Assembly (NCBI GenBank): GCA_021513715.1
Contig: CP084167.1
Span: 2,688,001 to 2,752,000 of the forward strand
Origin: Candidatus Heimdallarchaeum endolithica
GTDB lineage: Archaea; Asgardarchaeota; Heimdallarchaeia; Heimdallarchaeales; Heimdallarchaeaceae
Direction of reading: 5' to 3'
DNA: 64,000 nucleotides
Shown here in pieces: positions 71 through 58,864 of the stretch. The translations under genes and the position numbers were made by a program. Under the pieces are notes generated by a model. It was not told the DNA's origin and searched no databases. It saw nothing but the letters and a program-made list of their open reading frames with translations. The first letter of the stretch is position 1; every line of letters starts with the position of its first letter.

Positions 71-1551
71 AATAACTTTTTTGTACAAGAATAAAAATGT
101 AGGAAGAAAAAAGAGGGGAGGAAAAAATTTAGGTTTAAATAGGAAAAAAAGATAAAATAAATGATGAAGAAGAAAGGGAGTAGAGAATGGATGGAGAAAA
201 CAGTAAGGATAACTTTACTCCCAAGTAGGAAAAAAGAAAAGTATCTAAAGGATGCGCAAAAAAAAGTAAGAGAACTAGCAAACATACTAATACCCTACAA
301 AAAAAATGTAAAAACAGGAATGGAGTTCCACCATTTAGTATACAAAAGGTTCAGATATCTAGGTCTGCACAGTCAGTTACAAGAGAATGTGCAAAGAAAG
401 GTATATGGGGCAAAAAAGGTAAAAAAGTTCAGAACCTTACCTTTGGAGTTCAACTTTCCCCGAAGTGGAAAGATAGCAAAAACAAGAAAAGACAACCCTG
501 TTTTAGTTGTTTCCCCATTGAAAAAAAGGATAGCTTTTCCTATTTGCCGAGATGGAGGGTGGAGAAGACTAAAGGAGTATACAATCAAGGGGTGGGAAGC
601 ACATAGTTGTAGAATTTTCCAACAAAAAAGGAAAAGAAAAAGGAAAGCAAAAGACCGAAAAAGAAGCAGTAAGGTCAACTATGGGTGGGTAGCACACCTG
701 AATATTAGAAAAGAACTTCCTCCTCCTCAAGAAGTAGAGGGAACAATAGGAGTAGACGTGGGAAGAAAAGTTTTTGCTGCAGTAACACTTAACCACCCCT
801 CTTTCCCTTTATTAGAGAGGTATATGGGAAAAGACATAGCTTGGAAACAACATCAGTTAGCAAAAAGAAGAAGAAAACTACAATCCTACAGAGATAAAGG
901 AAGTAAAAAGGCACGGCGTGCACTAAAAAAATTAAGAATGAAAGAAAGAAAGTATAATAAAACCCGTTGTGAGCAAATAGCTCACGAGATAGTAGATTGG
1001 GCAGTAACTACCCGTTCTGCCATAGTTATAGAAAACATAGAAGGAATAAGAAGTAAATGGAAAAAAGAAAAAACTAAAAGAAGAGGGAAGCAAAGCAAAA
1101 ATCTTCTTCGAGAGTTGAATAATTGGCCTTATGGCTTTTTCCTCTCGTTTTTGACCTCTCTCGCCTATCAACACCATATCCCAGCTGTAAAAGTTGACCC
1201 TCATTATACCAGTCAAACTTGTTCTCGATGTGGACATACTTCCAAGTCTTCACGTGTTAGTCGAGGACTTTATCGTTGTGTTGCTTGTGGTATAGAGCTC
1301 AACAGTGACCGTAACGCTTCTCGTAATATAGCCTTGAAAGGTTTCTCTTTCCTTGCTTTGCCTTTCTTTAGTTCCTGGTCTTCTTTTTATCCTTTCCCAC
1401 GTGAGAAGAAAAATAATTTTCTGGTTTCCGTGGTCGAGGAGCGCTCAACCTCCTCTTCTGGCTCAATGAGTGGTAAGTTCTTCCTCCCTCCCGGATAGAT
1501 CTTTCTCGAGAGTAAGATTGGCGTACAAAAATTTTGTACAAAAATCAAGTT
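71..1551 (+). mobile_element. Non-autonomous TnpB-only element with imperfect inverted ends
   Basis: Removing it restores the host frame. ATGAAT occurs at both junctions (68-73, 1553-1558). The ends share an inverted TTTTTGTACAA, and GTACAAAAAT is repeated at the right end (1523, 1536). Confidence 0.85.
161..1498 (+). CDS. tnpB: RNA-guided endonuclease TnpB (canonical RuvC D-E-D)
   Basis: GVDVG (RuvC-I), VIENI (RuvC-II), VDPHYTSQTCSRCG...CVACG zinc finger, DRNASRNI (RuvC-III). The true start may be the MEKTV codon. Confidence 0.93.
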   Translation: MMKKKGSREWMEKTVRITLLPSRKKEKYLKDAQKKVRELANILIPYKKNVKTGMEFHHLVYKRFRYLGLHSQLQENVQRKVYGAKKVKKFRTLPLEFNFPRSGKIAKTRKDNPVLVVSPLKKRIAFPICRDGGWRRLKEYTIKGWEAHSCRIFQQKRKRKRKAKDRKRSSKVNYGWVAHLNIRKELPPPQEVEGTIGVDVGRKVFAAVTLNHPSFPLLERYMGKDIAWKQHQLAKRRRKLQSYRDKGSKKARRALKKLRMKERKYNKTRCEQIAHEIVDWAVTTRSAIVIENIEGIRSKWKKEKTKRRGKQSKNLLRELNNWPYGFFLSFLTSLAYQHHIPAVKVDPHYTSQTCSRCGHTSKSSRVSRGLYRCVACGIELNSDRNASRNIALKGFSFLALPFFSSWSSFYPFPREKKNNFLVSVVEERSTSSSGSMSGKFFLPPG

Positions 1552-1896
1552 GATGAATGCTTTATCCTAACAATAATTGCCAAGAAAATAGATTCTAATT
1601 TGAGATCTGTGCTTTATTTGATATTACAGAAATTCTGTGAATGTATTAACTATTCAGTATTTATCTCTTCTGAAGTTCTAAAACAAGATGAGGAGGAAAA
1701 GTTTCTTATGATTCTAAAAAGTAACCTTGATGCAATATTGTATTAAAAAGAAACTCATTCTTTTTCCATTATTAAAACTAGTAAATACTAACACTCGTTA
1801 ATTGAGTACATACCTGAAAAACCTTTAAAAAATTTAAATAATTTGAACTTCTTCATAAATTAAAACAACATAATTCTTTTAAACGAATTTCTGTAT

Positions 1897-2973
1897 TTGA
1901 TGATGCTAATTTCCCTATACTCCTTATCCTATTTTATTGAGGCTATTCTATTTTTTGGTTTTACTTCGTTTATTTTCATAAAAAGTTACTTAAACATAAA
2001 GCATATTTCTAATCTATTTATGAGTATTGGAGCATTTTTTACACTACTTTCGTATAGCTTGGCTTTTGCATTAGCTTTTACTAGTCCTGACAATATAGAA
2101 AGAGCTAAAATAATTTTGGTAAGTACAAATCTATTACTTACACTGGGTATTTATTTAATTTCTATAGCTCTCTTTTATATAAGATCAAAATTTTTCAATA
2201 TTGCTGCCATTACAAGTTCTTTTGTAATAGGAGTCGCTTTTATAACGCTTTCTTACCTTGAAAATATATCAATGAATTACAATGAAAATGTGAAATACTG
2301 GGTGACTGATTATTCAAAGCATGTAACTGTATTAATGGGTTCAGTTTTATTGTTTATCACAATTTTAATTTCTCTCTATGTAATTGAGAAATTAAAATAT
2401 GACATTAAAAAAAGGAAATTCATTACATTAACAACATTAGGTATATTTACTTCGTTTATATGGATTCTAATAATTTCCATTACCAGATTATATCTATATC
2501 GGATATTTATATTACCTTTAGCTCTTTTTTTGATTGGTTTAGATAATTTATTCAATCCTCTAAGTCTGATAATTTCTCATAACAAGCCTACAGAAATTTT
2601 TCTTCTTTCTAAAACCAATGTTCCTCTTGTAGGTTATGATTATAATAAAAGAAAAAAAATAGAAGATTTAAGCGATATTAGAATACTTAGAGTTAGCCAA
2701 TTACTTATAGAGGAAAAAGTAGGAGAAACAAAAAATGCATATTTCTATGCAACAGAGGGAGAATTAATATCAATCGCTTACGGAAATTTTATTTTGACAA
2801 CTATCGCTAAAAAAATAGATGTTAACTTGAAAACTGTACTTTTTCTTACTCTAAGACAGTTTAACGAATATTTTGATTTTTCAACAGTAAGAAATGTCAA
2901 GGAGTTAAAAAAAGATGAAGAAGAGATGTTTCTTACTATTCTAAATAATTATCTAGACACAATCTTACATTAA
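1897..2973 (+). CDS. Multi-pass (~7 TM) membrane protein with C-terminal soluble longin-like domain
   Basis: About 7 hydrophobic segments, then a ~130 aa domain starting EIFLLSKTNVPLVGY, resembling the longin N-terminal strands. Confidence 0.7.
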   Translation: MMMLISLYSLSYFIEAILFFGFTSFIFIKSYLNIKHISNLFMSIGAFFTLLSYSLAFALAFTSPDNIERAKIILVSTNLLLTLGIYLISIALFYIRSKFFNIAAITSSFVIGVAFITLSYLENISMNYNENVKYWVTDYSKHVTVLMGSVLLFITILISLYVIEKLKYDIKKRKFITLTTLGIFTSFIWILIISITRLYLYRIFILPLALFLIGLDNLFNPLSLIISHNKPTEIFLLSKTNVPLVGYDYNKRKKIEDLSDIRILRVSQLLIEEKVGETKNAYFYATEGELISIAYGNFILTTIAKKIDVNLKTVLFLTLRQFNEYFDFSTVRNVKELKKDEEEMFLTILNNYLDTILH

Positions 2974-3048
2974 AGAATTCCCTTTTTTAGTGATTTTTAT
3001 AATTTGGAAATATTTTTAAGTTCTTAATAAGGACTTATAGTGATAACA

Positions 3049-3219
3049 ATGAATCTTGTCCTCTCCTTATAGCATGTTGCGAGGGGAACTCGCGCTAAGA
3101 AAAACAAGTCATGAATTTTGATTAGATTAGCGGCGAGTAGAGAAATTGTTTGAGTTTTGCTTTTACTTATAAAAGAACTATAGTTTTACTTTTCTCATAC
3201 TAGCTGTTTTCTAATCAAA
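3049..3219 (+). promoter_or_regulatory. Putative structured 5' leader RNA upstream of the GTPase
   Basis: Hairpin GCGAG/CTCGC (3079-3093) lies inside a CTTGT/ACAAG stem. A long stem TTTGATTAGA (3117-3126)/TCTAATCAAA (3210-3219) has an inner GAGAAA/TTTCTC pairing. A TATA-like TTTTTAAG is at ~3013. Confidence 0.45.
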
Positions 3220-3236
3220 TTTTTATTTAATCAAAA

Positions 3237-4235
3237 ATGGAGGTGAAAAAAGTGTCAAATTACACAAAATTAAAGTGGTATCGCTTTGATATTGCGAGAA
3301 GAATCAGAGCGCTTGATGGAGAAGAATTAATTGCAGAATTAGAAGAAATAATAGAAGAAATCAAAAGAAAAAAGTTAGATCGATTAGGAGTATTTAAAGT
3401 TCAGATTAGAGAATTAGAACAGTTAATCGAAAATGAAAAAGCTCAACCAAAAAGAAAAGGAAGACAATATGACCCATTTTATATTCCATATGGAGGAGAT
3501 GGACGAGTTGCACTTTTTGGTTTGTCAAATGTCGGAAAAAGCTCGCTTATGAATGCTATAACTAATGCAGAAGTAGCTACTGGGGATTATTTGAACACTA
3601 CAAGACAAGCCTTAGCAGGGACGTGTGTATATGAGAATGTAAAAATTCAAATTATTGATTTACCTGGTTTCCTTGATTTTAAGGAAGATTGGAACATTAG
3701 TAAACAAATCTTAAGGGTTGCTCGAACTTGTGACTCTATATTACTTGTAATAGACTTGTCAATGGATGTTGAAAGACAATACAACTTTCTTATCAAACAA
3801 TTAGAAAACGCTAGATTAATTAAAGATAGAGAAACAATCTACAAATTTGCTATTATTGCAACAAAAGGTGATCTTCCTTGTACAGAAGAATCTTTTAAGA
3901 AACTGAAAGCAATGACTGATTTAGCTGTATGCCCAATTTCAATGAAAAATAAGGATTCTTTGGATAGATTAAAGAAAATGCTATTTGAAACACTAAATGT
4001 AGTAAGAGTTTACACTAAGAAACCTAAAAATCAACCTGATATGGAGCATCCTCTCGTTCTACCAAAAGGTTCAACAGTTAAAGATGTAGCACTGAAATTG
4101 CATAAGGATTTCCTTAAATTTTTCAACTATGCTAGAATCTGGGGTAAATCTTGCGATTTTCCAGGTCAAAGAGTAGGGGTTGGACATACTCTTGAAGACG
4201 AGGATATAGTAGAAATTTCTACTTCACAAAAATAA
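3237..4235 (+). CDS. DRG/Obg-family GTPase with C-terminal TGS domain
   Basis: GLSNVGKS (G1), DLPG (G3), TKGD (G4), TGS motif VRVYTK...LH..F..ARIWGKS..FPGQRVG. Likely start is GTG 3252 after GGAGGTGA. Confidence 0.9.
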   Translation: MEVKKVSNYTKLKWYRFDIARRIRALDGEELIAELEEIIEEIKRKKLDRLGVFKVQIRELEQLIENEKAQPKRKGRQYDPFYIPYGGDGRVALFGLSNVGKSSLMNAITNAEVATGDYLNTTRQALAGTCVYENVKIQIIDLPGFLDFKEDWNISKQILRVARTCDSILLVIDLSMDVERQYNFLIKQLENARLIKDRETIYKFAIIATKGDLPCTEESFKKLKAMTDLAVCPISMKNKDSLDRLKKMLFETLNVVRVYTKKPKNQPDMEHPLVLPKGSTVKDVALKLHKDFLKFFNYARIWGKSCDFPGQRVGVGHTLEDEDIVEISTSQK

Positions 4236-7664: not shown

Positions 7665-7757
7665 AAATTTTATTTTAAATTGATACACATAAACTTTTTT
7701 GTACATTCTTCTTTGTTTTTAAAAAAGTAAAAATAATAGAAATAAAAAAAGGAGGGA

Positions 7758-8432
7758 CTATTTTCCTGCTTCAGCTAAAGCTATCTGGATTGCTTTTTCT
7801 ATATCTTCATCTACTCGCAATCCTTTATTTCTATCTTGAGGGGAAACAACATTTATGATGGCAATGTCAGCTCCATTGAAGTAAGCTTCTTTTACTTTGT
7901 CTACTACTAAACCCCCTGCAACTGAAATAAGTGTGTCAAATTTTGATCTTATTTTAGTTATATCTTTATATCTAATGATACTTCTTGGATTGTCTTCTTC
8001 ATCTCGTCCTTTATGAATAACTACAGCATGGGGTTTAAAACGTAAAGGCATCATTTTGCGTAGAGGATTAGTTACTCCTAACATATCAATAACAGCGTAG
8101 AGTCCATTCTCACTACAAAATTTGCAGAACAAGTTTAAAGTATCTATTGGCGCAGAACCTAATACAGTTACTGCATTCGCTCCTGCTCTAGCAGCTATCA
8201 TTGTTTCACTAAATGCTCCATCTGTAAGTTTTAAATCAGCTAAAACTAATCCTTTCCAATGTCTACGAATGTAGTTGACTCCTCTCATCCCCTCGAGTTT
8301 GATAAAAGGGGTTCCAGCTTCTATTATTATTCTTGAATCATTAGGTATTCTAGGAAGAATAGCTCTAACTTGAGATAAATCACCGTTAAAAGCTATCTGA
8401 ATATACCTACGATGCAAATCCAAGTTTATCAT
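7758..8432 (-). CDS. Hexulose-6-phosphate synthase / OMP decarboxylase family TIM barrel
   Basis: IEAGTPFIK..G, LADLKLTD, AGANAVTVLG, VAGG motifs. Confidence 0.85.
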   Translation of the reverse strand: MINLDLHRRYIQIAFNGDLSQVRAILPRIPNDSRIIIEAGTPFIKLEGMRGVNYIRRHWKGLVLADLKLTDGAFSETMIAARAGANAVTVLGSAPIDTLNLFCKFCSENGLYAVIDMLGVTNPLRKMMPLRFKPHAVVIHKGRDEEDNPRSIIRYKDITKIRSKFDTLISVAGGLVVDKVKEAYFNGADIAIINVVSPQDRNKGLRVDEDIEKAIQIALAEAGK

Positions 8433-8436
8433 ATTC

Positions 8437-9225
8437 TTACTCCTTTGATTTATTCACGTTATGAATGATTTCAGTTATTTCTTCAGTTAATCCTCCTGGC
8501 ATAAAAATAACCACTTTCTCGCTAGGATCTTGAGCTATATCTCTTATGGTTTGCAATGTTCTAAGTTGTAGACCACCTTTTGTTTTTGTTAAAATTGTAG
8601 CTGCTTCAGAGAGTTTCTGTGCTGCGATAAATTCACCTTCAGCTTTAATAATAACTGCACGTTTATCTCTTTCTGCTTCTGCTTGGATAGCAAAAGCTCT
8701 TTTCATTTCAGCTGGAAGTTCAATCTCTTGCATTTTGATAGCTTCAATATCCACGCCCCATTCGCTTGTTTCTTTATCTACAATTTTCTTGATATCTGCA
8801 GCAATTTGATCTCTCTCCGTTAACACTTGGTCTAACTCCATTGTGCCTATAGTATCTCTTAATGCAGCTTGAGTATATTGTTGTACTGCATAACGATAAT
8901 TAGCTATTTTTATCACTGCATCTTCAGGTCTCTCTACTTTGAAATAGACTACAGCATTAGTCAAAACAGGAATGTTGTCTTTTGTCATAACTTCTTGTCG
9001 AGGAATATCTTGGGTAATTATTCTCAAATCAACCTTTACTCCCTTCTCTAATATGGGAGTGACATATACAAGTCCTGGACCTATAGTTCGTACATATTTT
9101 CCAAGTCTGAAAACTACTATCCTCTCATATTCATAGGCTAATTTCAAACCAGAAAGGAAAAATAAGCCAATAATTGCCAATCCTATTCCAATGAAAACAA
9201 ATATTTCTACTTCCATTTCTATCAA
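8437..9225 (-). CDS. SPFH/stomatin family membrane protein
   Basis: N-terminal TM, YERIVVFRLG, GPGL, VDLR, TKDN, QAEAER.KRA, LRTLQT. Confidence 0.95.
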   Translation of the reverse strand: MIEMEVEIFVFIGIGLAIIGLFFLSGLKLAYEYERIVVFRLGKYVRTIGPGLVYVTPILEKGVKVDLRIITQDIPRQEVMTKDNIPVLTNAVVYFKVERPEDAVIKIANYRYAVQQYTQAALRDTIGTMELDQVLTERDQIAADIKKIVDKETSEWGVDIEAIKMQEIELPAEMKRAFAIQAEAERDKRAVIIKAEGEFIAAQKLSEAATILTKTKGGLQLRTLQTIRDIAQDPSEKVVIFMPGGLTEEITEIIHNVNKSKE

Positions 9226-49131: not shown

Positions 49132-49336
49132 ATCTAGTCATCTTTTATGTAAAAAAGTAACATCAATGTTCTTATATCTTTTGAAAAAAACTTGAATTTA
49201 CTAATTCAAAAGAAGAGAAATGCTTTTTATAAGTAATCTGAAAGGTGCTGTTAGATATTTTTCTTAACTAAAATTGTAATGTTAATATGTTGACTAAAAA
49301 TATAATTGATTTATTCATTTTAAGAGATTTTAATAC

Positions 49337-50349
49337 GCATGTCCAAAAATTCTTTTTCACCTACTAAACGGTCCGAAGGAGTAAAAAGTAGTTGTAACAG
49401 AGGAGAGAACCATAAAGGGTAGAGAGAATGGTAGAGGGTAAGCGATCAAGGATCGGGGGAAGAGAGAGTTTAAGGAGACTAAACCAACGACATGTTCAAT
49501 ACTACTACGATACTCGGGGTGGTTATTATGATAGACGATACAGACCAGTGTAGAGACGATGAGCTTGAACTATTGGTCCGAGGGGAGGAGGAAAGGGATA
49601 ACGAGCATTACTTTTTGGGAGAATAACAGGGAAAAAGGAATGTTGGCTAAGAAGACCCACGATATTTTCTGTCCAGTAGGCACAGTTACCATAGAAACTC
49701 AAGAACTGTCTCAAGAATGCAGGAGGAAGTTTCTGCCATAGTAAACCGAAGACTTTACTATCGTGAGTGTTACTAGCAGAATGAGCTAGAGAGACTATAG
49801 CTCTGGAGGGTAAACCTACTATAAGGTGTATCTTCCAGAAAAGTTTAGTTTGGAGGTTTTCTTTAGTGCTCCCCTTGACCATTTGAGAAAACGCCAAACA
49901 GAAGCTTGACGAATTTTAAAACCTGAACTATCCACCCCATATCTTTCAACCCTTTTTTTCTCATCATTTCTCCCCCTAAATCTATTATCTATTGCTCTAA
50001 GATTTTACTTTCTGTTACTCTCCACACTACATGAAAAGTGGATTTGGAAGGAATATTCTTCATCCACCCCTCTTCTATCAAAAAGTCGCATAAAGACAAT
50101 TTTTCTTCTAACTTCCTCCAGGCTATTCCTTCTATTCTCGCAATAATTGCTATTGCTAATATCACCCATCTCTCTACTATTCTTTTTCTCCCTCTCTTAC
50201 TTTCTCTCGTTTCCTCTTTCACCAGTTTCTTAAGGAAAAGTTCATTAATGACTATGAATTCTCTTACTTTTTGGGAGTCTAAAATCTGGAAATATATCAT
50301 ACTTCCGACATAAACCCCCGCATTAATAAAAATTAATTTTTGGACATGC
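49337..50349 (-). mobile_element. Degenerate IS5-like copy with pseudogenised transposase
   Basis: Both 15-bp TIRs are present. The transposase is broken into 49989..50300 and 49526..49897 by a stop and frameshifts. Confidence 0.92.
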
Positions 50350-50653
50350 TTTTTTTATACTAAAAAATGTTACAAGATCTAAAAAAGTAAAAAAAAATGA
50401 TTAAATCTATTTTTATTCTTGAATGTTACAAATTGGCTTGAGCTTTGAAATCTTGATTTCTTCCTGCTTTGTCTGAATTATATAGAATGAGCTTTGCAGT
50501 CTCCTTTGTTGTAGATTTTGTTTTTTTGTCATCGTGTCACTATTATCTCATAAAGAAGTTATAATATTTAATCATTCTATTTTAAAAGCTATCTTTCTTC
50601 ATTTATCGTCCTAAGTGTGTTTGGTTGGTGTTTGTGCTTTTATTTATTCTTGT

Positions 50654-51565
50654 TTATAATTCAACCAAATCTATAAGTTCACAAAAGTCTTTATATAGAG
50701 AAACAACTTCTTTCTTTTTTAATCTAAAGTCCAATTTATGTTTTGTAGAATTATACTGAATTCTTATTTGGTTTAATAATCTTTCTTGGTGTTTATCAAT
50801 AATTTTTCTTTGAACTAAATCTTGAATTAAGTTTTGATTAATCTCCTTTTTCTTTTGATTTAGTAAGTGAATACACCAAAGTTCTGAAACTCTCCCCAAC
50901 GATAACATTGATGCAATGGTATCTACTTTTAGTAATTCGTCGATTTTTTTTGTTTGCGAAATCAAATCCTCATGATTCAGAGGTTCAGTAATCTCTCTAA
51001 TATGTAACCCATTAGCACATGTATCTATTTCTGTTTCTAAGAGGCCCCATTTATAATCAAATGTAGAAATTATTTGATTTTTTGCATCATCCATAATCCA
51101 TTTCTCTAGTTCTTCTTTAGGCATTAGATCAAGTTCATATGTTTTCCTTCTTTCTTCTCTACGATAATAACTAACAATGATCTTATCCTTTTTTCTTTCT
51201 ACTAAATAGTTTCCATAGACCTCATCTGTTTCCCAGACATCTCTCTCTAGCAGAAAAATAATTGAATCTTTACGACTTCTTCTATAATCTTTATGTATGA
51301 AAGATATAACTTTTTCATCAAAATAATAATGATATTTTTGGAGGAAATCCCAAATTTCCTGTAAGTGATTTAACAACAATCCCAGTAATGTTTTTGGCCA
51401 TGAATATTTAGGTTCAGTAAACCTTGGTTTAGCAATACATAAACTGTTTTCTTTATTAAAGTTAACTCTCATCTCGCGTTTGTAAGGGATTTCTCGCAGT
51501 TTGCCTTCTAGTTTTTTATGTTTTTCCAATAGCTCATTTCCTAACTTAACCAACTCTTCTTGCAT
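50654..51565 (-). CDS. Protein with C-terminal HEPN/DUF4145-like domain
   Basis: ASMLSLGRVSE...LIQDL....II......LNQIRIQYNSTKH (R..xN...H motif). Confidence 0.6.
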   Translation of the reverse strand: MQEELVKLGNELLEKHKKLEGKLREIPYKREMRVNFNKENSLCIAKPRFTEPKYSWPKTLLGLLLNHLQEIWDFLQKYHYYFDEKVISFIHKDYRRSRKDSIIFLLERDVWETDEVYGNYLVERKKDKIIVSYYRREERRKTYELDLMPKEELEKWIMDDAKNQIISTFDYKWGLLETEIDTCANGLHIREITEPLNHEDLISQTKKIDELLKVDTIASMLSLGRVSELWCIHLLNQKKKEINQNLIQDLVQRKIIDKHQERLLNQIRIQYNSTKHKLDFRLKKKEVVSLYKDFCELIDLVEL

Positions 51566-51578
51566 TTAAACCCCAATA

Positions 51579-51923
51579 TCATTGAAACTTACTGCATGGT
51601 TCTAGCGCTAAACTTACTTTTCCTCCACTTTCAGGAAAAACATTGACCACGTTACCAGATCCACCTAACTCTACTCTAACTTTTTCACCTTTGTATTCTG
51701 CTATTTCTTTTTCTAAACACTTAATTAGCTTCGGATAGAATTTTTCTTTGGTTGTTTCTCCTCCTTCTATGCAGAATTGGTAATCAAAATCACTAGTTCG
51801 TTGAAAATCTCCTCTGTTTCTAGATCCCACAGCCCTAATTTCTATGTTGGGAAAGCATTTTTTAACGTGCTGTTTTACTACATTTGCAAAATCATCATAA
51901 AATTTTTTACTTCTTGGTTTCAT
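51579..51923 (-). CDS. Minimal nucleotidyltransferase (Pol-beta superfamily)
   Basis: VGSRNRGD...SDFD (GS...DxD) motif; 114 aa. Confidence 0.8.
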   Translation of the reverse strand: MKPRSKKFYDDFANVVKQHVKKCFPNIEIRAVGSRNRGDFQRTSDFDYQFCIEGGETTKEKFYPKLIKCLEKEIAEYKGEKVRVELGGSGNVVNVFPESGGKVSLALEPCSKFQ

Positions 51924-52667: not shown

Positions 52668-55490
52668 TTAATCTTTATCTTTTTTAATATAACTTGGGAT
52701 TTCTCCTAAAGGTGGTTGAGGTCTGTTTGATTGATTCCATACTGCTTTAATTAGTTCTTCTAATTTATCTTCATATTCTTGTGCGTTTCGAAAATCAACA
52801 TATATTCTACCTTGTAATTCTTTTGGAATAGTATCTTCTTTAGATCCTTCTTTCAAGATTGGGATTATATCTCCTTTTTTTGGTTTCCTTTCAATTAAAT
52901 TATTAATAAATAGAAACTCAATCTGAATTCCACTACTTTTTTCACTTTCCAATTTCTTGATAAGCATATGATCACATACAACTAAAACTTTGTCGACAAT
53001 TGATATCTGTTTCATATATTCCATTATTCTCTCTCCTGGTTTCAGGTTCCAAACATCAAGTTTACAGTCTATTGCTCCCTTTTCACGAAGATCTGTTGCC
53101 AGTCTAATTACCCAATCACTATGTTCTTCTGTACTGTATGCATAAGTTAAAAATGCACTTGGATTAACTACATCTAAATTTTTTTTTTCTCCTTCTCCAT
53201 CTCCCTTTTTTTGAATTATTTTTTTATTTTTTTTGATTTCATCTTCTCGAATCTTGATTTCTGGAACTATGTGCATTAGTTTTTTTATGATTTGCTCCAA
53301 AAAATTATTAACAATTATTTCATCCTTTCCTCCATAAAAAATTTTTATTTCTTGTTTTCTTTTTCTTCCTTCTATAATTTCTGCCAAAAGAATTTGAAAA
53401 CAAAATGAATTATCCACAGTTGTGAAAACACCTGATTTTTTACATATTTGAACCACATTAAGGTTTAAGTCAATTATTGAATCTAAAAAATTGTACCATG
53501 AAAAGTTATCTTCATTGGTTTTAAATGAGATTTCATTTTCTTCTGGTATTAGAGAGAGAAAGTTACTAGGTAATTCAGTTGTTTCATCGCTAAAATGTCT
53601 AGGAACTAATATTAGTTCTTTACTTTCTACTCCTTCAAAAAACACTACGGCTTCTAAGTTTCTTTCAAGTAGTTTAATTTGAAACCTTATGTAAGTTTCT
53701 ATTTGTTCTTTTCCTTCTGATAATTTTTTCAATAGTTCTCTTGTAGTAATTATACCATTCTTATTCTTTATAAGTTCTGGAATTAGTGACTTTAAAGTGT
53801 TGTATTTTTTATCATTTATTATAACCTGATCTAAATCCTTAATATATTCAATTAATCCTTGTTTTGTTAAAATATTAAAAATGTATCTTAGATGTTTTTT
53901 AGGAATTTTTAATTTTAAAATATCTTGAAAATCTTTTACACTCATTGTGTCAATATTTTTTTCTGATAATAAGTTTTCTAGAACTTCAGAAACAACAGCA
54001 AAATGTTTTGACTGTACCATTTTTTTTGTTTTTTTCCAATTTATATCTCCTATTATAGCTGATTTTAGTTTATTTATATTACTACCTTTTTTTGAGCTAA
54101 TTGAAAACATTCTATCAATTTTGTGTCTTTCCAGAATACTAGAGAAGTCAATTCCTTGGACAGAATTGTGAGGGTCATCGGTGAAATTTCGTATTAAGTA
54201 GTATTTACAATTTGGTGAGGTGAATTTCTTGAGTTCTTTTAAATGCGAAAGTGCCCTGTTTAATGTTTCATTATCTGTTTGCTTAAAAATTATGAAAATT
54301 ATATCGGAATCGGATAAACTCTCATAAAAAGTAAATAGTTGCGACTCTTGTCCAGCTATATCATATAGTAAAATCTGTTGATTGTCTTCCAGTTCAAAAT
54401 CATCATTTCTGTTAAGAGTCCAGATCCTCCGCCCAAATGTGGACTTAAGTTCTACGTCTAATGTATTGTTTTTTAAATAATAACATAAAGACGATTTTCC
54501 TACACCTGTATGTCCTATTAATCCTATTTTTGCATAGTTGAATATCTTTTGTTCTTCGTATCTTTCTGACTTCTCTTTATCTATATATACAAGATTTTGA
54601 TTTATAAGAGTAAATATATTATTATTTATAATTTTTATCTCTCTACATGACAATTTTGGGATAAAACTAGTTTCTAATGACTCTGAATCGATAAATATCA
54701 ATTCCTCTGACGTTCCAGCTATTAGTATATTTTTGTACAAAACTATATCTCTACCTTTACCTGAAGCAAGCGAATAATTTGCTTCATAGATATAATCATC
54801 TTCAACTAAATAAAATTGATATATTATGCCGCTTCTATTTATCATTGCGAATGATTTTTCATCTATCTGACTTGCATGTTGCATGTTACCTATAGTTTTT
54901 TCTACAAATGATTCTTCAATTTCAGAGTTAAAATTCCATAAAATATTAATTCCCTTATAGTCGTTGGTGATTACTTTATTTTTTCCAATTTTGTCTAGAC
55001 AAAAAATTGAATGAGAATGGCCTGTCAGACGTTTATTTGTCCAACCATTTTCACATTTTGACCATAAAATAAGAGTCCCATATGTTCCGCTAGATAAAAA
55101 TTGTTTATTGTTTAATTTCGCAACTCTCCAAACTTGATCTTGTTTATACTTTCCTCTTTGTAAATATTGAGTATTCTCTAAATTACCATCTTTGAACTTC
55201 AATATTGCAATATCTCCACCTTTACTGGCAACAACTATTTGATTCTTTGATAAAAGTTCAATGCTTCTAATTTCATCATTAAATTTTTTAATCTTTTTTA
55301 AACATCCAAGATTGTCAATTAAAGTTAAAAACTGTTCTGAAGAATCAATAAAATCCTCAATTTTTTCGTTTGTTAATTCAATAGTACATAAATAAATATT
55401 ACCGAAGTTTGTACCAATAATCAATTTTGAAAGATTAGAATGATCTAGAAAATCAAAAGCTGAAAATATTTCATATCTTTCAATCATCAA
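52668..55490 (-). CDS. Roco-like protein: WD40 propeller + Roc GTPase + COR-like + TIR/SEFIR
   Basis: WD-like repeats (LTGHSHSIFCL...ILWN), GHTGVGKSS, STFG, YDIAGQE, ISSK.G. C-terminal AFLTYAY...H.DWV..LA.DL...D.W.LKPG...E...IIPIL...P..L..R.YVDF. Confidence 0.85.
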   Translation of the reverse strand: MMIERYEIFSAFDFLDHSNLSKLIIGTNFGNIYLCTIELTNEKIEDFIDSSEQFLTLIDNLGCLKKIKKFNDEIRSIELLSKNQIVVASKGGDIAILKFKDGNLENTQYLQRGKYKQDQVWRVAKLNNKQFLSSGTYGTLILWSKCENGWTNKRLTGHSHSIFCLDKIGKNKVITNDYKGINILWNFNSEIEESFVEKTIGNMQHASQIDEKSFAMINRSGIIYQFYLVEDDYIYEANYSLASGKGRDIVLYKNILIAGTSEELIFIDSESLETSFIPKLSCREIKIINNNIFTLINQNLVYIDKEKSERYEEQKIFNYAKIGLIGHTGVGKSSLCYYLKNNTLDVELKSTFGRRIWTLNRNDDFELEDNQQILLYDIAGQESQLFTFYESLSDSDIIFIIFKQTDNETLNRALSHLKELKKFTSPNCKYYLIRNFTDDPHNSVQGIDFSSILERHKIDRMFSISSKKGSNINKLKSAIIGDINWKKTKKMVQSKHFAVVSEVLENLLSEKNIDTMSVKDFQDILKLKIPKKHLRYIFNILTKQGLIEYIKDLDQVIINDKKYNTLKSLIPELIKNKNGIITTRELLKKLSEGKEQIETYIRFQIKLLERNLEAVVFFEGVESKELILVPRHFSDETTELPSNFLSLIPEENEISFKTNEDNFSWYNFLDSIIDLNLNVVQICKKSGVFTTVDNSFCFQILLAEIIEGRKRKQEIKIFYGGKDEIIVNNFLEQIIKKLMHIVPEIKIREDEIKKNKKIIQKKGDGEGEKKNLDVVNPSAFLTYAYSTEEHSDWVIRLATDLREKGAIDCKLDVWNLKPGERIMEYMKQISIVDKVLVVCDHMLIKKLESEKSSGIQIEFLFINNLIERKPKKGDIIPILKEGSKEDTIPKELQGRIYVDFRNAQEYEDKLEELIKAVWNQSNRPQPPLGEIPSYIKKDKD

Positions 55491-55658
55491 AAAATAAGAC
55501 TAATTACAATTTATAAAATTATGTACAAAATTAATAAAACCAACCTAAATATATTGTAAATTATCTTTTTAAAAAATATTTAAAAATTCTAAAATATATC
55601 GTAAAGTTAATTAAAAAACTTTGATTTTAATAATTGTATTTTGTGTATGTGTTGAAAT

Positions 55659-57917
55659 GTGATCTTGAAAATGTTTTGGACTGAAGATGAATTTATAAAA
55701 AACATGAGGAATGCTCTTGGTTGGGTTAAATATTCAAGGCAATTAAATCAAGAACAAATGTCAGCTGTATTACATACAAACGGGCCTTTATGGGTTCTAG
55801 CTGGTCCTGGTTCAGGAAAAACAGAACTATTAATCTGGAAACTATTTAAGCTTATTTTTGTTGATGGTGTCGATCCTCAAACTATCTTTTTAACAACATT
55901 TACAGAAAAAGCTGCAAAAAACATGTTTAATAGAATAATTACTTATTATAACAATTTGTTAAAACATGGCTTTGATTGTATTAAAAACGTTGATATTAGC
56001 AGCTTGAAGATAGGTACTCTTCATTCCTTATGTAATTCAATACTAGTTGAATATAGATATGATAATTATCACACTAAGAGGTTGATGGATGAGAATGAAT
56101 CCTCCTATTTTTTTTACAAATATGTTACCATGACAAAAAGCGGTAGTCAAGGCCCCTCAGATTACTTTTGGGAATATTTTTTCGAGAAACGACCTTATTC
56201 TAAATGGCAACGAGTAAATTACTCTAAAATATTACTCTCTAGAATTACTGAAGATTTGATTGATGTTGAAAAGCTTCAGAATTCTGATGATATTTTCATG
56301 CAAGAGTTAGCAGAATATTATATACAATACAAACAAAGTTTAAATCATAGAGATAGATGTGACTTTCCAACTGTGCAGCAGTTATTTCTTAAATTCTTAA
56401 ATGAAGAAGAAGGAGAAAAATTTATTCAAGGCGATATGGAAAGAGACCTTCCTCCAATAAAGTATGTTTTAGTTGATGAATATCAAGACACAAATCCTAT
56501 TCAAGAAGAAATATATTTTCGTATGACGGAATTGATTTCTCCTTCTGACTGTAATATAACAGTTGTTGGAGATGATGATCAAGCTATGTATAGGTTTAGA
56601 GGAGCCACCGTAGATTCGCTTATCTTCTTTGGTGAAAGGGTAAAAGAAAGATTTGGAAAAATTCCAACAAAAATTCAATTAAAAAGAAACTATCGTTCTC
56701 ATCCTGCCATAATTGATTGGTTTAATAGTTATATTGCAAATATGCCTGAAATGCAAATTAAAGGTGCTAGGGCTCCAGGAAAAGAACGTATGATTTCTGC
56801 TAAACATTTTCAAGAGAATTGGAATCCCATAGCTATTATTGAAGGATCTTCACTTACTGATACTGCAGAGAAAGTTGCTGAATTTATTCAATCAATAATT
56901 AATTTTAGGGATGAGAAAAATGAGAAGATAATTGACGATCCATCACAAATTGTTATTTTATCACAAAGTACAAGAGAAACTTCTAGAAATGTTGGATCTT
57001 TTGTTGAATCTTTAAGGAGAAGAGGAGTTCCTGTATATAATCCTAGAAATAGAAAAATCCATGAGACAACAGAAGTAAAACAATTATTAGGGGCATACAT
57101 TGAAATAATAGATAAGAACAACTCTGAACTTTCTGAAAATGATCATGTGTTAAGAATATCAACAAGAGTAAAAGACTTTATTCAAAGTTGTAGAAGAGAA
57201 TATCAAAATTTAATCACATCACAAGGAGGAATTGATAAATTATTAAACTATGTATCTCAATCTCAACTGAAAATAGAAAGTGCTCCTCCAAATAAAAAAT
57301 TTGATGCTACATTTCATAGAATCTTTTTAAGACTATTAAATTGCCCTCCTTTTTCAGAATATCTTTCAGATCCAGTTATATCTCCCAGATATGGCATAAT
57401 TTCTGCTCAAATAGAAGCATTTAATACCGTTTATTCAAATTATTTAGTGAAATCCTCTACTATAAATTCATTAAAAAGAAATTTGCTAAGGGACTTCTAT
57501 ACTGTTTTTTGTGGTCAAATCTTAAACAGTGGGCTAAATGATGTAGAAGATATAGACTATCCTATTCTTCCTGGAAGAGTTCAGATTGTGACTTATCATC
57601 AGTCAAAAGGATTGGAGTTTCCAATTGTGATTCTTTTAGGGTTAACAAAGCAGTATAGGGTTGGCATAAGTTATAAATTGGAGAGGATGTTATCAGAATA
57701 TAGAAAAAATCCATTACAATTAGAATCGGATGAATTAAGAGCTGCTCAAGATATGATCCGATTGTACTATGTAGGTCAAACGCGTGCAAAATACTGTTTA
57801 ATTTTTGCAGATAAAGAATTAAATAAATGGAAATATTCCCTTGGATTTGATGAGAAAGGAGAAAAAAGATTTTCTTTAAACTGGTTAGAGAATAATAATA
57901 TTCCAGTATACAGGTGA
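55659..57917 (+). CDS. UvrD/PcrA-family SF1 helicase
   Basis: AGPGSGKT, TFTEKAA, GTLHS, VDEYQD, VGDDDQ.MY.FRGA, NYRS, HQSKGLEF, YVGQTRAK. Confidence 0.95.
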   Translation: MILKMFWTEDEFIKNMRNALGWVKYSRQLNQEQMSAVLHTNGPLWVLAGPGSGKTELLIWKLFKLIFVDGVDPQTIFLTTFTEKAAKNMFNRIITYYNNLLKHGFDCIKNVDISSLKIGTLHSLCNSILVEYRYDNYHTKRLMDENESSYFFYKYVTMTKSGSQGPSDYFWEYFFEKRPYSKWQRVNYSKILLSRITEDLIDVEKLQNSDDIFMQELAEYYIQYKQSLNHRDRCDFPTVQQLFLKFLNEEEGEKFIQGDMERDLPPIKYVLVDEYQDTNPIQEEIYFRMTELISPSDCNITVVGDDDQAMYRFRGATVDSLIFFGERVKERFGKIPTKIQLKRNYRSHPAIIDWFNSYIANMPEMQIKGARAPGKERMISAKHFQENWNPIAIIEGSSLTDTAEKVAEFIQSIINFRDEKNEKIIDDPSQIVILSQSTRETSRNVGSFVESLRRRGVPVYNPRNRKIHETTEVKQLLGAYIEIIDKNNSELSENDHVLRISTRVKDFIQSCRREYQNLITSQGGIDKLLNYVSQSQLKIESAPPNKKFDATFHRIFLRLLNCPPFSEYLSDPVISPRYGIISAQIEAFNTVYSNYLVKSSTINSLKRNLLRDFYTVFCGQILNSGLNDVEDIDYPILPGRVQIVTYHQSKGLEFPIVILLGLTKQYRVGISYKLERMLSEYRKNPLQLESDELRAAQDMIRLYYVGQTRAKYCLIFADKELNKWKYSLGFDEKGEKRFSLNWLENNNIPVYR

Positions 57918-58864
57918 AAAATATGAGTATTAGACAATTTAAGGATATTCCTCGAGAAAAATTAGAATTATCAAGGCCATTGAGAAAGTATAGTATTATT
58001 GGTGATGTGTTGTCTTATTTGTTGTGTCCTAGGCAATATGGTTATTTTAAAGTAAGAAATATTGTTCCTTCAGCTCAAGGCCAATTATTCTTTGGTGAAG
58101 TAATTCATAATGTTCTAGATAGAGTTCATCTTCATTACAGGAAAACAAATGAAAATCAGTCTAATTCATTACCTACAGAAAATGAAATAGATCAATATTT
58201 TGATATTGTGTCTAAAGCATTAAAATCCCAAGGTATAAGACCATTAAGCAAAAGTTTGGAACAAAGGGCACGAAAATTAATTAAGCAATTTGTTTTTACC
58301 TTTGGGCATACCTTATTTCCAAGGGTAAAAGATACTGAACATAAGTTACAGATCCAAACATCACTAGACAATGGTTTAGATTACATTTTACATGGTGTCG
58401 TGGATGTTTTATTCTACAATTATGAAGATGGTAATATCTCTAACGAGAAAGTGGAAATTTGGGATTATAAAGGTGGTAGAATCCCTGATGAACAATACTT
58501 AAAGAATTATGAATTTCAAATGTTGGTTTATTCATTCCTTTTTAAACAAAAAAATGGTTTTTATCCTGAAGAAAATGTACTATTTTTTATTGGCGAAATG
58601 GATAGAGAGTCTAATCTTGGATTAAGTGCAGAAGAATTACTTGACCGATGTACTGTTAAGGTAAAAATAGATGAACAAAAAATTAAACATGCAATGAAAA
58701 AATTTGAAGAAGCTGTAGAAAAAATTGAAGATGAGTATAATAGGCCATTTGATAAACAATGGTTAGCTCCAAAAGTTAAACCACCAGAGACGATGTGTGC
58801 AACGTGTGATATTCGATGGTCATGTGAAAATCCCAATGGCAAATTTGAACTTTCAGGATTATAA
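57914..58864 (+). CDS. PD-(D/E)xK nuclease of RecB/Cas4/AddB type with 4-Cys Fe-S motif
   Basis: CPRQY, G..IH, GVVD, DYK, Q...Y, C-terminal CATC.....C. The start overlaps the helicase stop (GTGA). Confidence 0.88.
   Translation: MKNMSIRQFKDIPREKLELSRPLRKYSIIGDVLSYLLCPRQYGYFKVRNIVPSAQGQLFFGEVIHNVLDRVHLHYRKTNENQSNSLPTENEIDQYFDIVSKALKSQGIRPLSKSLEQRARKLIKQFVFTFGHTLFPRVKDTEHKLQIQTSLDNGLDYILHGVVDVLFYNYEDGNISNEKVEIWDYKGGRIPDEQYLKNYEFQMLVYSFLFKQKNGFYPEENVLFFIGEMDRESNLGLSAEELLDRCTVKVKIDEQKIKHAMKKFEEAVEKIEDEYNRPFDKQWLAPKVKPPETMCATCDIRWSCENPNGKFELSGL

What the first reader, a model, noticed from the sequence alone, without database searches (positions are those of the whole stretch)
52668..55490. WD40-Roc-COR-TIR/SEFIR protein embedded in a defence island
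Seen: beta-propeller, Roc GTPase (G4 altered to NFTD), COR-like region and a TIR/SEFIR domain retaining a Glu (GIQIEF) at the likely catalytic position. It is divergent from the UvrD operon. Established: Roco proteins (LRRK2 family) dimerise via COR, prokaryotic ones usually carry LRRs, and clustered TIRs act as NADases in immunity. Inference: a one-component, eukaryote-like immune receptor in which propeller sensing drives GTPase-gated TIR activation.
Basis: partly seen in the sequence, partly recalled or inferred. Interest (0 to 1): 0.75.

Follow-up and report, generated by a model that had tools for sequence, protein, structure and literature searches.

The report
Archaeal propeller-Roco GTPase-SEFIR immune sensor candidate
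An Asgard archaeon carries, in a strain-specific defence island, one 939-residue protein that joins a WD40 propeller, an LRRK2-type Roc-COR GTPase switch and a bacterial-type SEFIR NAD-cleaving domain; it is most likely an untested antiviral suicide sensor of a kind so far predicted only by computer.

Summary
ORF 52668-55490 (-) encodes a 7-bladed WD40 propeller, a Roc GTPase with intact G1-G5, a COR-A/COR-B region and a C-terminal SEFIR domain. The COR region is missed by Pfam but matched by structure to the C. tepidum and M. barkeri Roco proteins and LRRK1/2. The SEFIR domain is of the bSEFIR defence type and keeps the invariant Asp812 and Glu858. "NFTD" is not a damaged G4: the family consensus is T[F/H]xD, which aligns with LRRK2 THLD.

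The genome is Asgard. The gene is single-copy and absent from a same-genus genome. It lies in an IS-bounded island next to a UvrD-nuclease pair, a TGT gene and a methyltransferase.

The propeller-Roc-COR chassis is an archaeal family whose C-terminus changes among TIR, SEFIR, Schlafen/AlbA_2 and CHAT. "Tail-less" members have a TIR gene directly downstream.

Ten fused TIR-type loci (six lineages) carry exactly A9 at the chassis-effector joint. The target has A10 there, and a ±1 slip removes only the SEFIR domain.

The best reading is a GTPase-gated NADase defence sensor. It is a new variant of the AP-GTPase/Roco conflict systems predicted by Kaur et al. 2021. This scan has already met the family on other genomes. 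Function is untested.

The parts
52668..55490 (-). Whole ORF (940 codons from TTG; likely start is ATG at 55487, giving 939 aa; stop at 52668-52670)
54570..55478 (-). 7-bladed WD40 beta-propeller (residues 5-307), the presumed sensor
   Evidence: AF2 model; VIA Z 28, rmsd 2.5-2.9 over about 272 residues to RACK1 and alpha-COP; weak Pfam propeller hits
54021..54548 (-). Roc (Ras of complex) GTPase, residues 315-490. G1 GHTGVGKSS 326-334, switch-I T351, G3 DIAGQE 377-382, G4 NFTD 435-438, G5 SSK 465-467
   Evidence: Pfam Ras/Roc. In 49 family members G326, G331, K332, D377, G380 and Q381 are invariant and D438 is nearly so
53601..54020 (-). COR-A (residues 491-630; two winged-helix-like units)
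   Evidence: Foldseek to 3dpu_A, 6hlu, 4wnr and LRRK1/2; family profile aligns with LRRK2 1328-1678 at E 9e-17
53256..53543 (-). COR-B-like alpha/beta unit (residues 650-745), the presumed dimerisation element
   Evidence: AF2 secondary structure; the Foldseek alignment covers 482 columns against the 485-residue CtRoco RocCOR chain
53160..53255 (-). Lys-rich flexible linker (residues 746-777, low pLDDT) carrying A8, A7, A7 and A10 runs
53179..53188 (-). A10 homopolymer (codons E767-K-K-N770), 9 codons before the SEFIR domain. A -1 or +1 slip stops translation at residue 771 or 775, removing only the SEFIR domain
   Evidence: Only 53 runs of 10 or more in 3.33 Mb. Ten fused TIR-type homolog loci have an A9 run at the equivalent joint
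52731..53159 (-). bSEFIR-type SEFIR/TIR-superfamily domain (residues 778-920). Invariant D812 (53055-53057) and E858 (52917-52919)
   Evidence: PADLOC bSEFIR 1e-41; domain model pLDDT 87.6; top Foldseek hit is the B. cereus SEFIR 5y8e; profile against 5y8e E 1.6e-56; invariant columns
55491..55658 (.). Divergent intergenic region shared with the UvrD + PD-(D/E)XK pair (55659-58864, +)
49300..50370 (.). IS copy (DDE transposase fragments) at the left edge of the strain-specific island. Window 50.4-60 kb has no counterpart in the same-genus genome

Best explanation
This is a stand-alone, single-polypeptide archaeal immune sensor built as sensor-switch-effector.

- The N-terminal WD40 propeller binds an invader-derived ligand (inferred).
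- Binding changes the nucleotide state and the COR-mediated dimer or oligomer state of the Roc-COR GTPase (inferred by analogy with Roco proteins).
- The flexibly tethered C-terminal SEFIR domains then come together into an active assembly that hydrolyses NAD+ through Glu858. This is inferred from bSEFIR and TIR NADases.
- NAD+ depletion stops the infected cell and the virus (abortive infection).

What is shown: the domain anatomy, intact GTPase motifs, the bSEFIR-type domain with its invariant residues, the exchangeable effector position, the fused and split forms, and the location in a variable island.

The A10 tract at the chassis-effector joint may additionally yield effector-less chassis by slippage (hypothesis).
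For: - Anatomy.
- GTPase motifs are invariant across 49 relatives.
- The SEFIR domain matches the bSEFIR model at 1e-41, and D812 and E858 are invariant in 41 bSEFIR-like sequences.
- bSEFIR is an experimentally shown single-protein defence that depletes NAD+ (papers read).
- The same chassis carries TIR_2, SEFIR, SLFN_AlbA_2 or CHAT tails. The quick tree needs at least 14 tail changes.
- In 6 of the 16 TIR-type loci with DNA the TIR is a separate gene directly downstream; in the other 10 it is fused.
- No other partner gene is conserved.
- The family occurs in 8 of 400 Asgard genomes and in 0 of 30 genomes of the target's own family. It is absent from the same-genus genome.
- The island is IS-bounded and holds a UvrD-nuclease pair, a TGT and a DNA methyltransferase.
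Against: - There is no experiment on any member of this chassis family.
- The neighbourhoods of homologs are mixed. Some hold an integrase, an REase-like gene or an HTH protein; others hold housekeeping genes such as PcrB, a hydrogenase, NFACT and RNase HII.
- The propeller is not clearly more variable than COR-B (mean pairwise identity 0.24 against 0.21), so there is no sign of an arms-race sensor surface.
- The catalytic role of E858 rests on alignment to the SEFIR family and on positional analogy to the TIR Glu, not on a residue-level structural superposition.
- No homolog was found on viral contigs.
Confidence: 0.62

Rival explanations
1. The architecture is the same, but the SEFIR domain acts as a signal generator or an adaptor rather than a bulk NADase. 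It would either make a nucleotide second messenger (as Thoeris ThsB TIRs do) or recruit another SEFIR/TIR protein by homotypic contact (as IL-17R/Act1 do). A separate effector would then act.
For: SEFIR in animals is a pure interaction domain, and the IL-17RA/RB/Act1 SEFIR filament is among the structural hits. In bSEFIR a mutation at a residue predicted to mediate SEFIR-SEFIR contact abolished defence. Stand-alone SEFIR or TIR proteins exist in archaea, e.g. a 147-aa ORF about 40% identical to the target's SEFIR domain in another Asgard genome.
Against: The target genome holds no second SEFIR-like sequence (tblastn). No conserved partner gene lies next to homologs. The invariant Glu is kept. 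bSEFIR is reported to deplete NAD+.
Confidence: 0.13
2. This is a non-immune regulatory Roco GTPase of Asgard cell biology, acting in signalling or as a cytoskeleton or membrane scaffold. Its TIR-like domain would be only a protein-interaction module.
For: Asgard genomes are rich in Ras-superfamily GTPases. This genome has eukaryote-type actin and VPS28. Some homologs sit among housekeeping genes. The physiological roles of prokaryotic Roco proteins are unknown (Wauters 2019).
Against: The gene is single-copy, absent from the sister genome and from 30 of 30 genomes of its own family, and present in 8 of 400 genomes of the phylum. Its effector position exchanges between TIR, SEFIR, Schlafen and caspase-like CHAT, which is typical of conflict systems. 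It lies in an IS-bounded island of defence genes.
Confidence: 0.1
3. The protein is one component of a multi-gene system with the divergently transcribed UvrD helicase + PD-(D/E)XK nuclease pair or the TGT/Dpd-like island. It would serve as that system's abortive back-up arm.
For: It shares a roughly 170-bp divergent intergenic region with the UvrD gene. The whole block is absent from the sister genome. Earlier notes read the right-hand genes as one BRIGADE-like island.
Against: None of the homolog loci whose neighbours were examined has a UvrD, nuclease or TGT gene among the ORFs scanned next to the homolog. The family behaves as a one-gene module, or as a chassis+TIR two-gene module.
Confidence: 0.05

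Closest known systems
AP-GTPase (Roc)-COR centred 'counter-invader' proteins predicted in silico by Kaur, Iyer, Burroughs & Aravind, eLife 2021 (PMC8195603)
   Same: A Roc-COR switch flanked by a repeat-type sensor and a variable C-terminal effector position that includes TIR and caspase-like domains. The logic is single-protein (here).
   Different: Those proteins are described for bacteria with N-terminal LRRs. Here the sensor is a WD40 propeller, the clade is archaeal (Asgard, Bathyarchaeota, Nitrosopumilus, Hadarchaeota) and the effectors include SEFIR and Schlafen/AlbA_2. A homopolymer tract marks the joint. None of these systems has been tested.
bSEFIR single-gene anti-phage system (Millman et al. 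2022; Bacillus sp. NIO-1130) and the B. cereus SEFIR structure 5y8e
   Same: The SEFIR domain belongs to the same family: PADLOC 1e-41, profile against 5y8e 1.6e-56, top Foldseek hit. The conserved Asp and Glu are present.
   Different: In bSEFIR the SEFIR domain is N-terminal and is followed by an uncharacterised C-terminal region. Here it is C-terminal, and positions 202-412 of the bSEFIR model are not matched. The sensor is a propeller-Roc-COR chassis.
Roco proteins: C. tepidum Roco (3dpu, 6hlu), M. barkeri Roco2 (4wnr), human LRRK1/LRRK2
   Same: The Roc-COR tandem fold matches. The family profile aligns with LRRK2 Roc+COR-A, and the T[F/H]xD G4 aligns with LRRK2 THLD. LRRK2 also carries a WD40 domain.
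   Different: There is no LRR and no kinase. The WD40 is N-terminal rather than C-terminal. The Ras-like catalytic Gln is kept in DxxGQ, where LRRK2 has Arg. The output is SEFIR. Pfam COR models do not detect the COR region.
STAND/NLR-type immune sensors with TIR outputs (plant TNLs, bacterial Avs/bNACHT)
   Same: The tripartite sensor-NTPase switch-effector logic, with TIR-superfamily NADase outputs activated by oligomerisation.
   Different: The switch is a Ras-like GTPase plus COR, not a STAND ATPase. The domain order is sensor-switch-effector (N to C), the reverse of TNLs.
TPR-ROCO-TIR of the red alga Chondrus crispus, and brown-algal LRR-ROCO candidate immune receptors (Teng et al. 2024, PMC11378527)
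   Same: A repeat domain, Roc-COR and TIR in one protein, proposed as an immune receptor.
   Different: These are eukaryotic, use TPR or LRR sensors, and have no shown relationship to this archaeal clade.

Membership tests
Roco proteins | Roc (Ras-like) G domain with G1-G5 motifs | tested here: met
   Pfam Roc 39 bits (cut-off 27) and Ras 42 bits. The G1, G3 and G4-Asp columns are invariant or nearly invariant in 49 relatives.
Roco proteins | COR domain directly C-terminal of Roc (RocCOR tandem) | tested here: met
   Top Foldseek hits are 3dpu_A (E 1.2e-14, 482 columns), 6hlu, LRRK2, LRRK1 and 4wnr. The family profile against LRRK2 1328-1678 gives E 9e-17 and extends through COR-A. The Pfam COR-A and COR-B models gave no hit at E<=1.
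Roco proteins | COR-mediated dimerisation and a GTP-dependent monomer-dimer cycle | not testable with these tools
   Needs biochemistry or a multimer model.
bSEFIR defence system | SEFIR domain of the bacterial bSEFIR type with its conserved Asp and Glu | tested here: met
   PADLOC PDLC03957 1e-41; 5y8e is the top fold hit and the top profile hit at 1.6e-56; D812 and E858 are invariant in 41 sequences.
bSEFIR defence system | Architecture: N-terminal SEFIR followed by the family's own C-terminal region | tested here: not met
   Only model positions 37-201 of 412 match. The domain is C-terminal, after a propeller-Roc-COR chassis.
bSEFIR defence system | NAD+ depletion on infection and protection from virus | not testable with these tools
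   Needs an experiment.
AP-GTPase/COR counter-invader systems (Kaur et al. 2021) | AP-GTPase + COR core with a variable C-terminal effector position | tested here: met
   The tails TIR_2, SEFIR, SLFN_AlbA_2, CHAT or none sit on one chassis. The tree needs at least 14 changes.
AP-GTPase/COR counter-invader systems (Kaur et al. 2021) | [quoted passage not shown] | tested here: not met
   The N-terminus is a 7-bladed WD40 propeller. It is no more variable than COR-B.
STAND/NLR immune sensors | STAND (NB-ARC/NACHT) P-loop ATPase core | tested here: not met
   The NTPase is Ras/Roc-like. For the target itself Pfam reported no STAND NTPase family at E<=1.
TIR-superfamily NADases | Catalytic Glu after strand betaC | tested here: inconclusive
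   E858 is invariant in the SEFIR family and is followed by a helix. HMM alignments to the AbTIR-type TIRs stop before this position, so equivalence with the TIR Glu is positional inference only.

The most novel reading that the evidence does not exclude
The homopolymer at the chassis-effector joint is a selected slippage site. It is A10 in this gene and exactly A9 in ten fused TIR-type relatives that fall into six lineages sharing no more than 60% identity. Slippage could be transcriptional, or replicative as in phase variation. Either way it would decide whether the killing domain is attached, so that a cell or population makes a set mixture of armed receptor and unarmed propeller-Roc-COR chassis. 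That mixture would buffer autoimmunity or tune the oligomer. The same site would also explain the frequent fused, split and 'tail-less' forms in this family.
Probability: 0.3. Interest if true: 0.8.

Novelty: new variant of a known kind. Interest (0 to 1): 0.6.

Why it matters
If this protein works as proposed, it shows that the sensor-switch-effector logic of NLR immunity has been built a second time on a Roco (LRRK2/DAPK-type) GTPase. It would also show that archaea, including Asgard lineages, use this design with a set of outputs that in eukaryotes belong to innate immunity and cell death: TIR, SEFIR, Schlafen and caspase-like CHAT.

It would give prokaryotic Roco proteins a physiological role, which is currently unknown. 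It would also provide a small, tractable model for how Roc-COR nucleotide state is coupled to an output domain, a question central to LRRK2 research.

The family profile resembles LRRK2 Roc-COR-A more than it resembles ordinary small GTPases. This makes the archaeal versus bacterial origin of eukaryotic Roco proteins testable by phylogeny.

The homopolymer joint, if functional, would be an unusual way to regulate a toxic immune effector.

Tried and rejected
The DNA and context of the closest full-length relatives (P0003, P0004, P0006, P0008, P0010) could therefore not be fetched. As a result the A-run could not be checked within the target's own SEFIR clade, apart from one broken Asgard copy (L005).
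- Scans with little or no yield. A genome-contig scan with the single protein found nothing. Alignment A3 was too diverse for a scan. Alignment A1 gave 6 archaeal loci. The viral-contig scan found none.
- The Pfam COR models gave no hit. COR was established by fold and by profile instead.
- The pdb_via search on the whole model was filled with propeller matches and said nothing about the other domains.
- Literature searches. A full-text search for 'bSEFIR' found 0 papers. 'Asgard' with 'Roco' returned only irrelevant papers. 'LRRK2' with 'anti-phage' and 'GTPase' returned only one cGAS review.
- Rejected: NFTD as a degenerate G4. It is the family norm.
- Rejected: the propeller as a hypervariable sensor. 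Its identity is similar to that of COR-B.
- Rejected: a conserved link with UvrD. None was seen in the homolog loci.
- Rejected: 'tail-less' relatives as effector-less. TIR coding sequence lies directly downstream in every TIR-type locus with DNA.
- The careful maximum-likelihood tree did not finish, so the quick IQ-TREE tree was used.
- The ESM Atlas hits to bacterial WD40-Roc-TIR_2, Roc-COR-TIR_2 and Roc-DUF4365 clusters are treated as leads only.
Full report
**1. What is there**

The minus-strand ORF 52668-55490 is intact. Its TTG is followed at once by ATG (55487), which matches the 939-aa copy held in the protein database (P0002).

Pfam finds Ras (7.5e-11), Roc (1.1e-9, above the cut-off), TIR_2 (1.8e-14), SEFIR (3.2e-7) and weak beta-propeller matches. 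PADLOC finds only bSEFIR, at 1e-41 on residues 762-938, covering model positions 37-201 of 412.

An AlphaFold2 model built on an 83-row alignment is very confident: mean pLDDT 92.9, pTM 0.82. It shows these parts:
- Residues 5-307: 28 strands forming seven blades.
- Residues 315-490: a Ras-like G domain.
- Residues 491-630: two winged-helix-like units.
- Residues 650-745: an alpha/beta unit.
- Residues 746-777: a low-confidence Lys-rich linker.
- Residues 778-920: a flavodoxin-like domain.

The propeller aligns with RACK1 and alpha-COP at VIA Z about 28 (rmsd 2.5-2.9 over about 272 residues).

The best Foldseek matches of the whole model are Roco proteins:
- C. tepidum RocCOR tandem, 3dpu_A: E 1.2e-14, 482 columns against a 485-residue chain.
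- LRR-Roc-COR, 6hlu.
- LRRK2 and LRRK1.
- M. barkeri Roco2, 4wnr.

A profile of 49 relatives hits LRRK2 residues 1328-1678 (Roc plus COR-A) at E 9e-17, ahead of every Rab or Ras protein. The middle region is therefore a true COR, although no Pfam COR model detects it.

**2.

The motif positions are G1 GHTGVGKSS (326-334), G3 DIAGQE (377-382), G4 NFTD (435-438) and G5 SSK (465-467).

Across 49 relatives G326, G331, K332, D377, G380 and Q381 are invariant and D438 is nearly so. The G4 consensus in the family is T-[F/H]-x-D, and it aligns with LRRK2 'THLD'. NFTD is thus the family's normal, Roco-like G4. The guanine-specifying Asp is kept, so the GTPase looks functional.

The C-terminal domain was modelled on its own (pLDDT 87.6). 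Its best structural match is the B. cereus SEFIR domain 5y8e, followed by the SPARTA, MyD88 and SARM1 TIRs and the IL-17R/Act1 SEFIR filament. A profile of 41 SEFIR relatives hits 5y8e at 1.6e-56.

In that alignment the Glu of GIQIEF (E858) and Asp812 are invariant. That E858 is equivalent to the TIR catalytic Glu is a positional inference, because the HMM alignments to the AbTIR-type TIRs end just before it.

Published work shows two things. bSEFIR protects Bacillus from phage phi29, and a mutation at a predicted SEFIR-SEFIR contact (D40A) abolishes this (Millman et al. preprint). SEFIR is also a single-protein system that depletes NAD+ to ADPR and nicotinamide (Osterman et al. preprint).

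**3. Organism and island**

The window lies in a closed 3.33-Mb genome. It has an archaeal SSU rRNA (1324 bits), a eukaryote-type actin (438 bits) and a VPS28 homolog that is absent from all 14 control genomes. These support the Asgard assignment made in earlier notes.

The gene is single-copy, and the genome holds no other SEFIR-like sequence.

The neighbours are as follows:
- A minimal NTase + DUF4145 pair at 50654-51923.
- Divergently, a UvrD helicase + PD-(D/E)XK nuclease at 55659-58864.
- A TGT/DpdA-like gene.
- A DNA methyltransferase followed by an unassigned 383-aa ORF.

Against a closed same-genus genome, window 40.0-50.4 kb is syntenic at 83-93% identity. A roughly 1-kb IS at 49.3-50.4 kb is multi-copy there. 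Window 50.4-60 kb has essentially no counterpart. The gene therefore sits in a strain-specific island whose left edge is an IS.

**4. The family**

Only two other full-length relatives turned up among 5.8 billion clustered proteins (38-41% identity).

An exhaustive search of 1.84 billion representatives gave 67 with E<=1e-30. Most of these cover only residues about 60-750, that is, the propeller-Roc-COR chassis.

Their C-termini fall into several classes:
- TIR_2: 12 representatives.
- SLFN_AlbA_2: 9 + 5 representatives.
- SEFIR: 7, including the target and its own database copy P0002.
- CHAT: 1.
- One tail with no family match (P0081).
- About 18 that appear 'tail-less'.

A quick ML tree of the chassis needs at least 14 changes of tail class. 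The target groups with the two other SEFIR forms. That group is sister to a SEFIR + CHAT pair and next to the main Schlafen clade.

The named genomes that carry the chassis are all archaeal: Nitrosopumilus, two Bathyarchaeota, Hadarchaeota, Atabeyarchaeum and Thorarchaeota.

Within the Asgard phylum the chassis occurs in 8 of 400 genomes and 8 of 85 genera. It occurs in 0 of 30 genomes of the target's own family.

The nearest neighbours of homologs are mixed. Some are mobile or defence-like: an integrase, an REase-like gene, an HTH protein and a LAGLIDADG protein. Others are housekeeping genes. None of the neighbouring ORFs scanned was a UvrD, nuclease or TGT gene. This argues for a self-contained module.

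A second group of about 1000-1090 residues has canonical WD40 repeats, a Roc domain, a COR-sized spacer and a SEFIR domain. ESM Atlas leads place such WD40-Roc-TIR clusters in Acidobacteriota, Actinomycetota and Cyanobacteriota.

**5. Fused and split forms, and the joint**

I located the COR-B and tail coding sequences in 20 loci with DNA. Every locus of the TIR type has TIR coding sequence 50-80 nt after the COR-B end.

- In 10 loci the TIR is fused.
- In 6 loci it is a separate gene in another frame. One of these is the Nitrosopumilus locus, where Pfam confirms a 138-aa TIR_2 ORF 3 nt after the chassis stop.

The 'tail-less' database proteins are therefore two-gene forms. This is Rosetta-stone evidence that the chassis and the TIR work together.

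All 10 fused TIR-type loci carry exactly A9, read as AAA-AAA-AAA, 8-10 codons before the TIR start. The loci fall into six lineages that share no more than 60% identity. They come from contigs of 37-47% GC.

Given K-K-K and each gene's own AAA/AAG usage, the joint probability is about 1e-4.

Two of the split loci keep the tract:
- One Asgard locus has A8 at that site, with the TIR out of frame.
- Another keeps A9 and runs into an overlapping ATGA stop-start.

The target belongs to the SEFIR clade. It has A10 (53188-53179) nine codons before its SEFIR domain, plus A8, A7 and A7 runs in the same linker. The genome has only 53 runs of 10 or more. A -1 or +1 slip ends the protein at residue 771 or 775, removing the SEFIR domain only.

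Whether this tract is used is not shown. The possibilities are transcriptional slippage, phase variation, or nothing more than a Lys-rich linker in an AT-rich genome. I could not get DNA for the target's closest relatives. The two Schlafen-type loci have no such run.

**6. Mechanism**

The best-supported reading runs as follows. The propeller senses an invader cue. The Roc-COR switch converts this into a change of nucleotide and oligomer state. The tethered SEFIR domains then cluster and hydrolyse NAD+, aborting the infection.

The parts list, the motif integrity, the effector exchange, the fusion and fission, and the island context are shown. The ligand, the GTP gating, the oligomerisation and the NADase activity are inferred from Roco, TIR and bSEFIR precedents.

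The rivals are a signalling or adaptor SEFIR, a non-immune Asgard GTPase, and a component of the UvrD or Dpd-like island. They are listed with their tests in the rival explanations.

**7. Relation to what is known**

Roco reviews state that all identified prokaryotic Roco proteins are LRR-RocCOR and that their function is unknown (Wauters 2019).

Kaur et al. 2021 predicted bacterial 'counter-invader' proteins of the form LRR-AP-GTPase-COR-effector. They listed at least 24 effector domains, including TIR and caspase. A TPR-ROCO-TIR protein is noted in a red alga.

The present gene is a Roco protein by its RocCOR tandem, and it carries a bSEFIR-type domain. It is not a member of the bSEFIR system, because the architecture test fails. 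It is not of the LRR-type AP-GTPase group either, because its sensor is a WD40 propeller.

I class it as a new variant of a computationally predicted, untested kind. The variant is an archaeal WD40 clade with SEFIR, TIR, Schlafen and CHAT outputs and a homopolymer joint.

This scan has already reported relatives on other genomes (e1-2405315, e1-3531203, e1-4505884, e1-1395788, e1-5461307). I found no paper linking Asgard archaea and Roco proteins, though the library is incomplete.

Noticed in passing
window 49300-50370: A roughly 1-kb IS with DDE transposase fragments. It has ten or more copies at 89-91% identity in the same-genus genome and marks the left edge of the strain-specific island.
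   Followed up: partly
window 50654-51923 (-): A 114-aa minimal nucleotidyltransferase directly upstream of a 303-aa protein with a C-terminal DUF4145 domain. This is a TA-like pair next to the target. It has no PADLOC hit.
   Followed up: no
L022 (JACXTT010062070.1) about 2920-2990: A split chassis/TIR locus that keeps the A9 tract and runs straight into an overlapping ATGA stop-start. It looks like a translationally coupled two-gene form.
   Followed up: partly
L016 (G003:C221) joint, about 7724-7799 (-): An Asgard homolog with A8 instead of A9 at the joint, so the TIR domain is out of frame. This is either a natural slip variant or a homopolymer assembly error.
   Followed up: partly
L005 (G044:C20) 764-3634 (-): The only other SEFIR-tailed Asgard copy with DNA. 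It is interrupted by an internal TAA, giving two ORFs of 370 and 549 aa. It has a T11 run about 35 codons before its SEFIR domain. It is probably a pseudogene.
   Followed up: no
L018 (G057:C48) 8219-8662 (-): A stand-alone 147-aa SEFIR ORF in another Asgard genome, about 40% identical to the target's SEFIR domain. The flanking ORFs have no Pfam family.
   Followed up: no
L012 7458-7898 (-): A nucleoside 2-deoxyribosyltransferase-like gene lies two genes upstream of the Hadarchaeota homolog. This enzyme class also occurs among conflict-system effectors.
   Followed up: no
ESM Atlas clusters: Large uncharacterised bacterial clusters combine Roc with DUF4365 (283 members, Cyanobacteriota) or Roc-COR-A with TIR_2 (Bacteroidota). 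The latter carries the automatic name 'non-specific serine/threonine protein kinase', although only Roc, COR-A and TIR_2 are listed for it. These are leads only.
   Followed up: no
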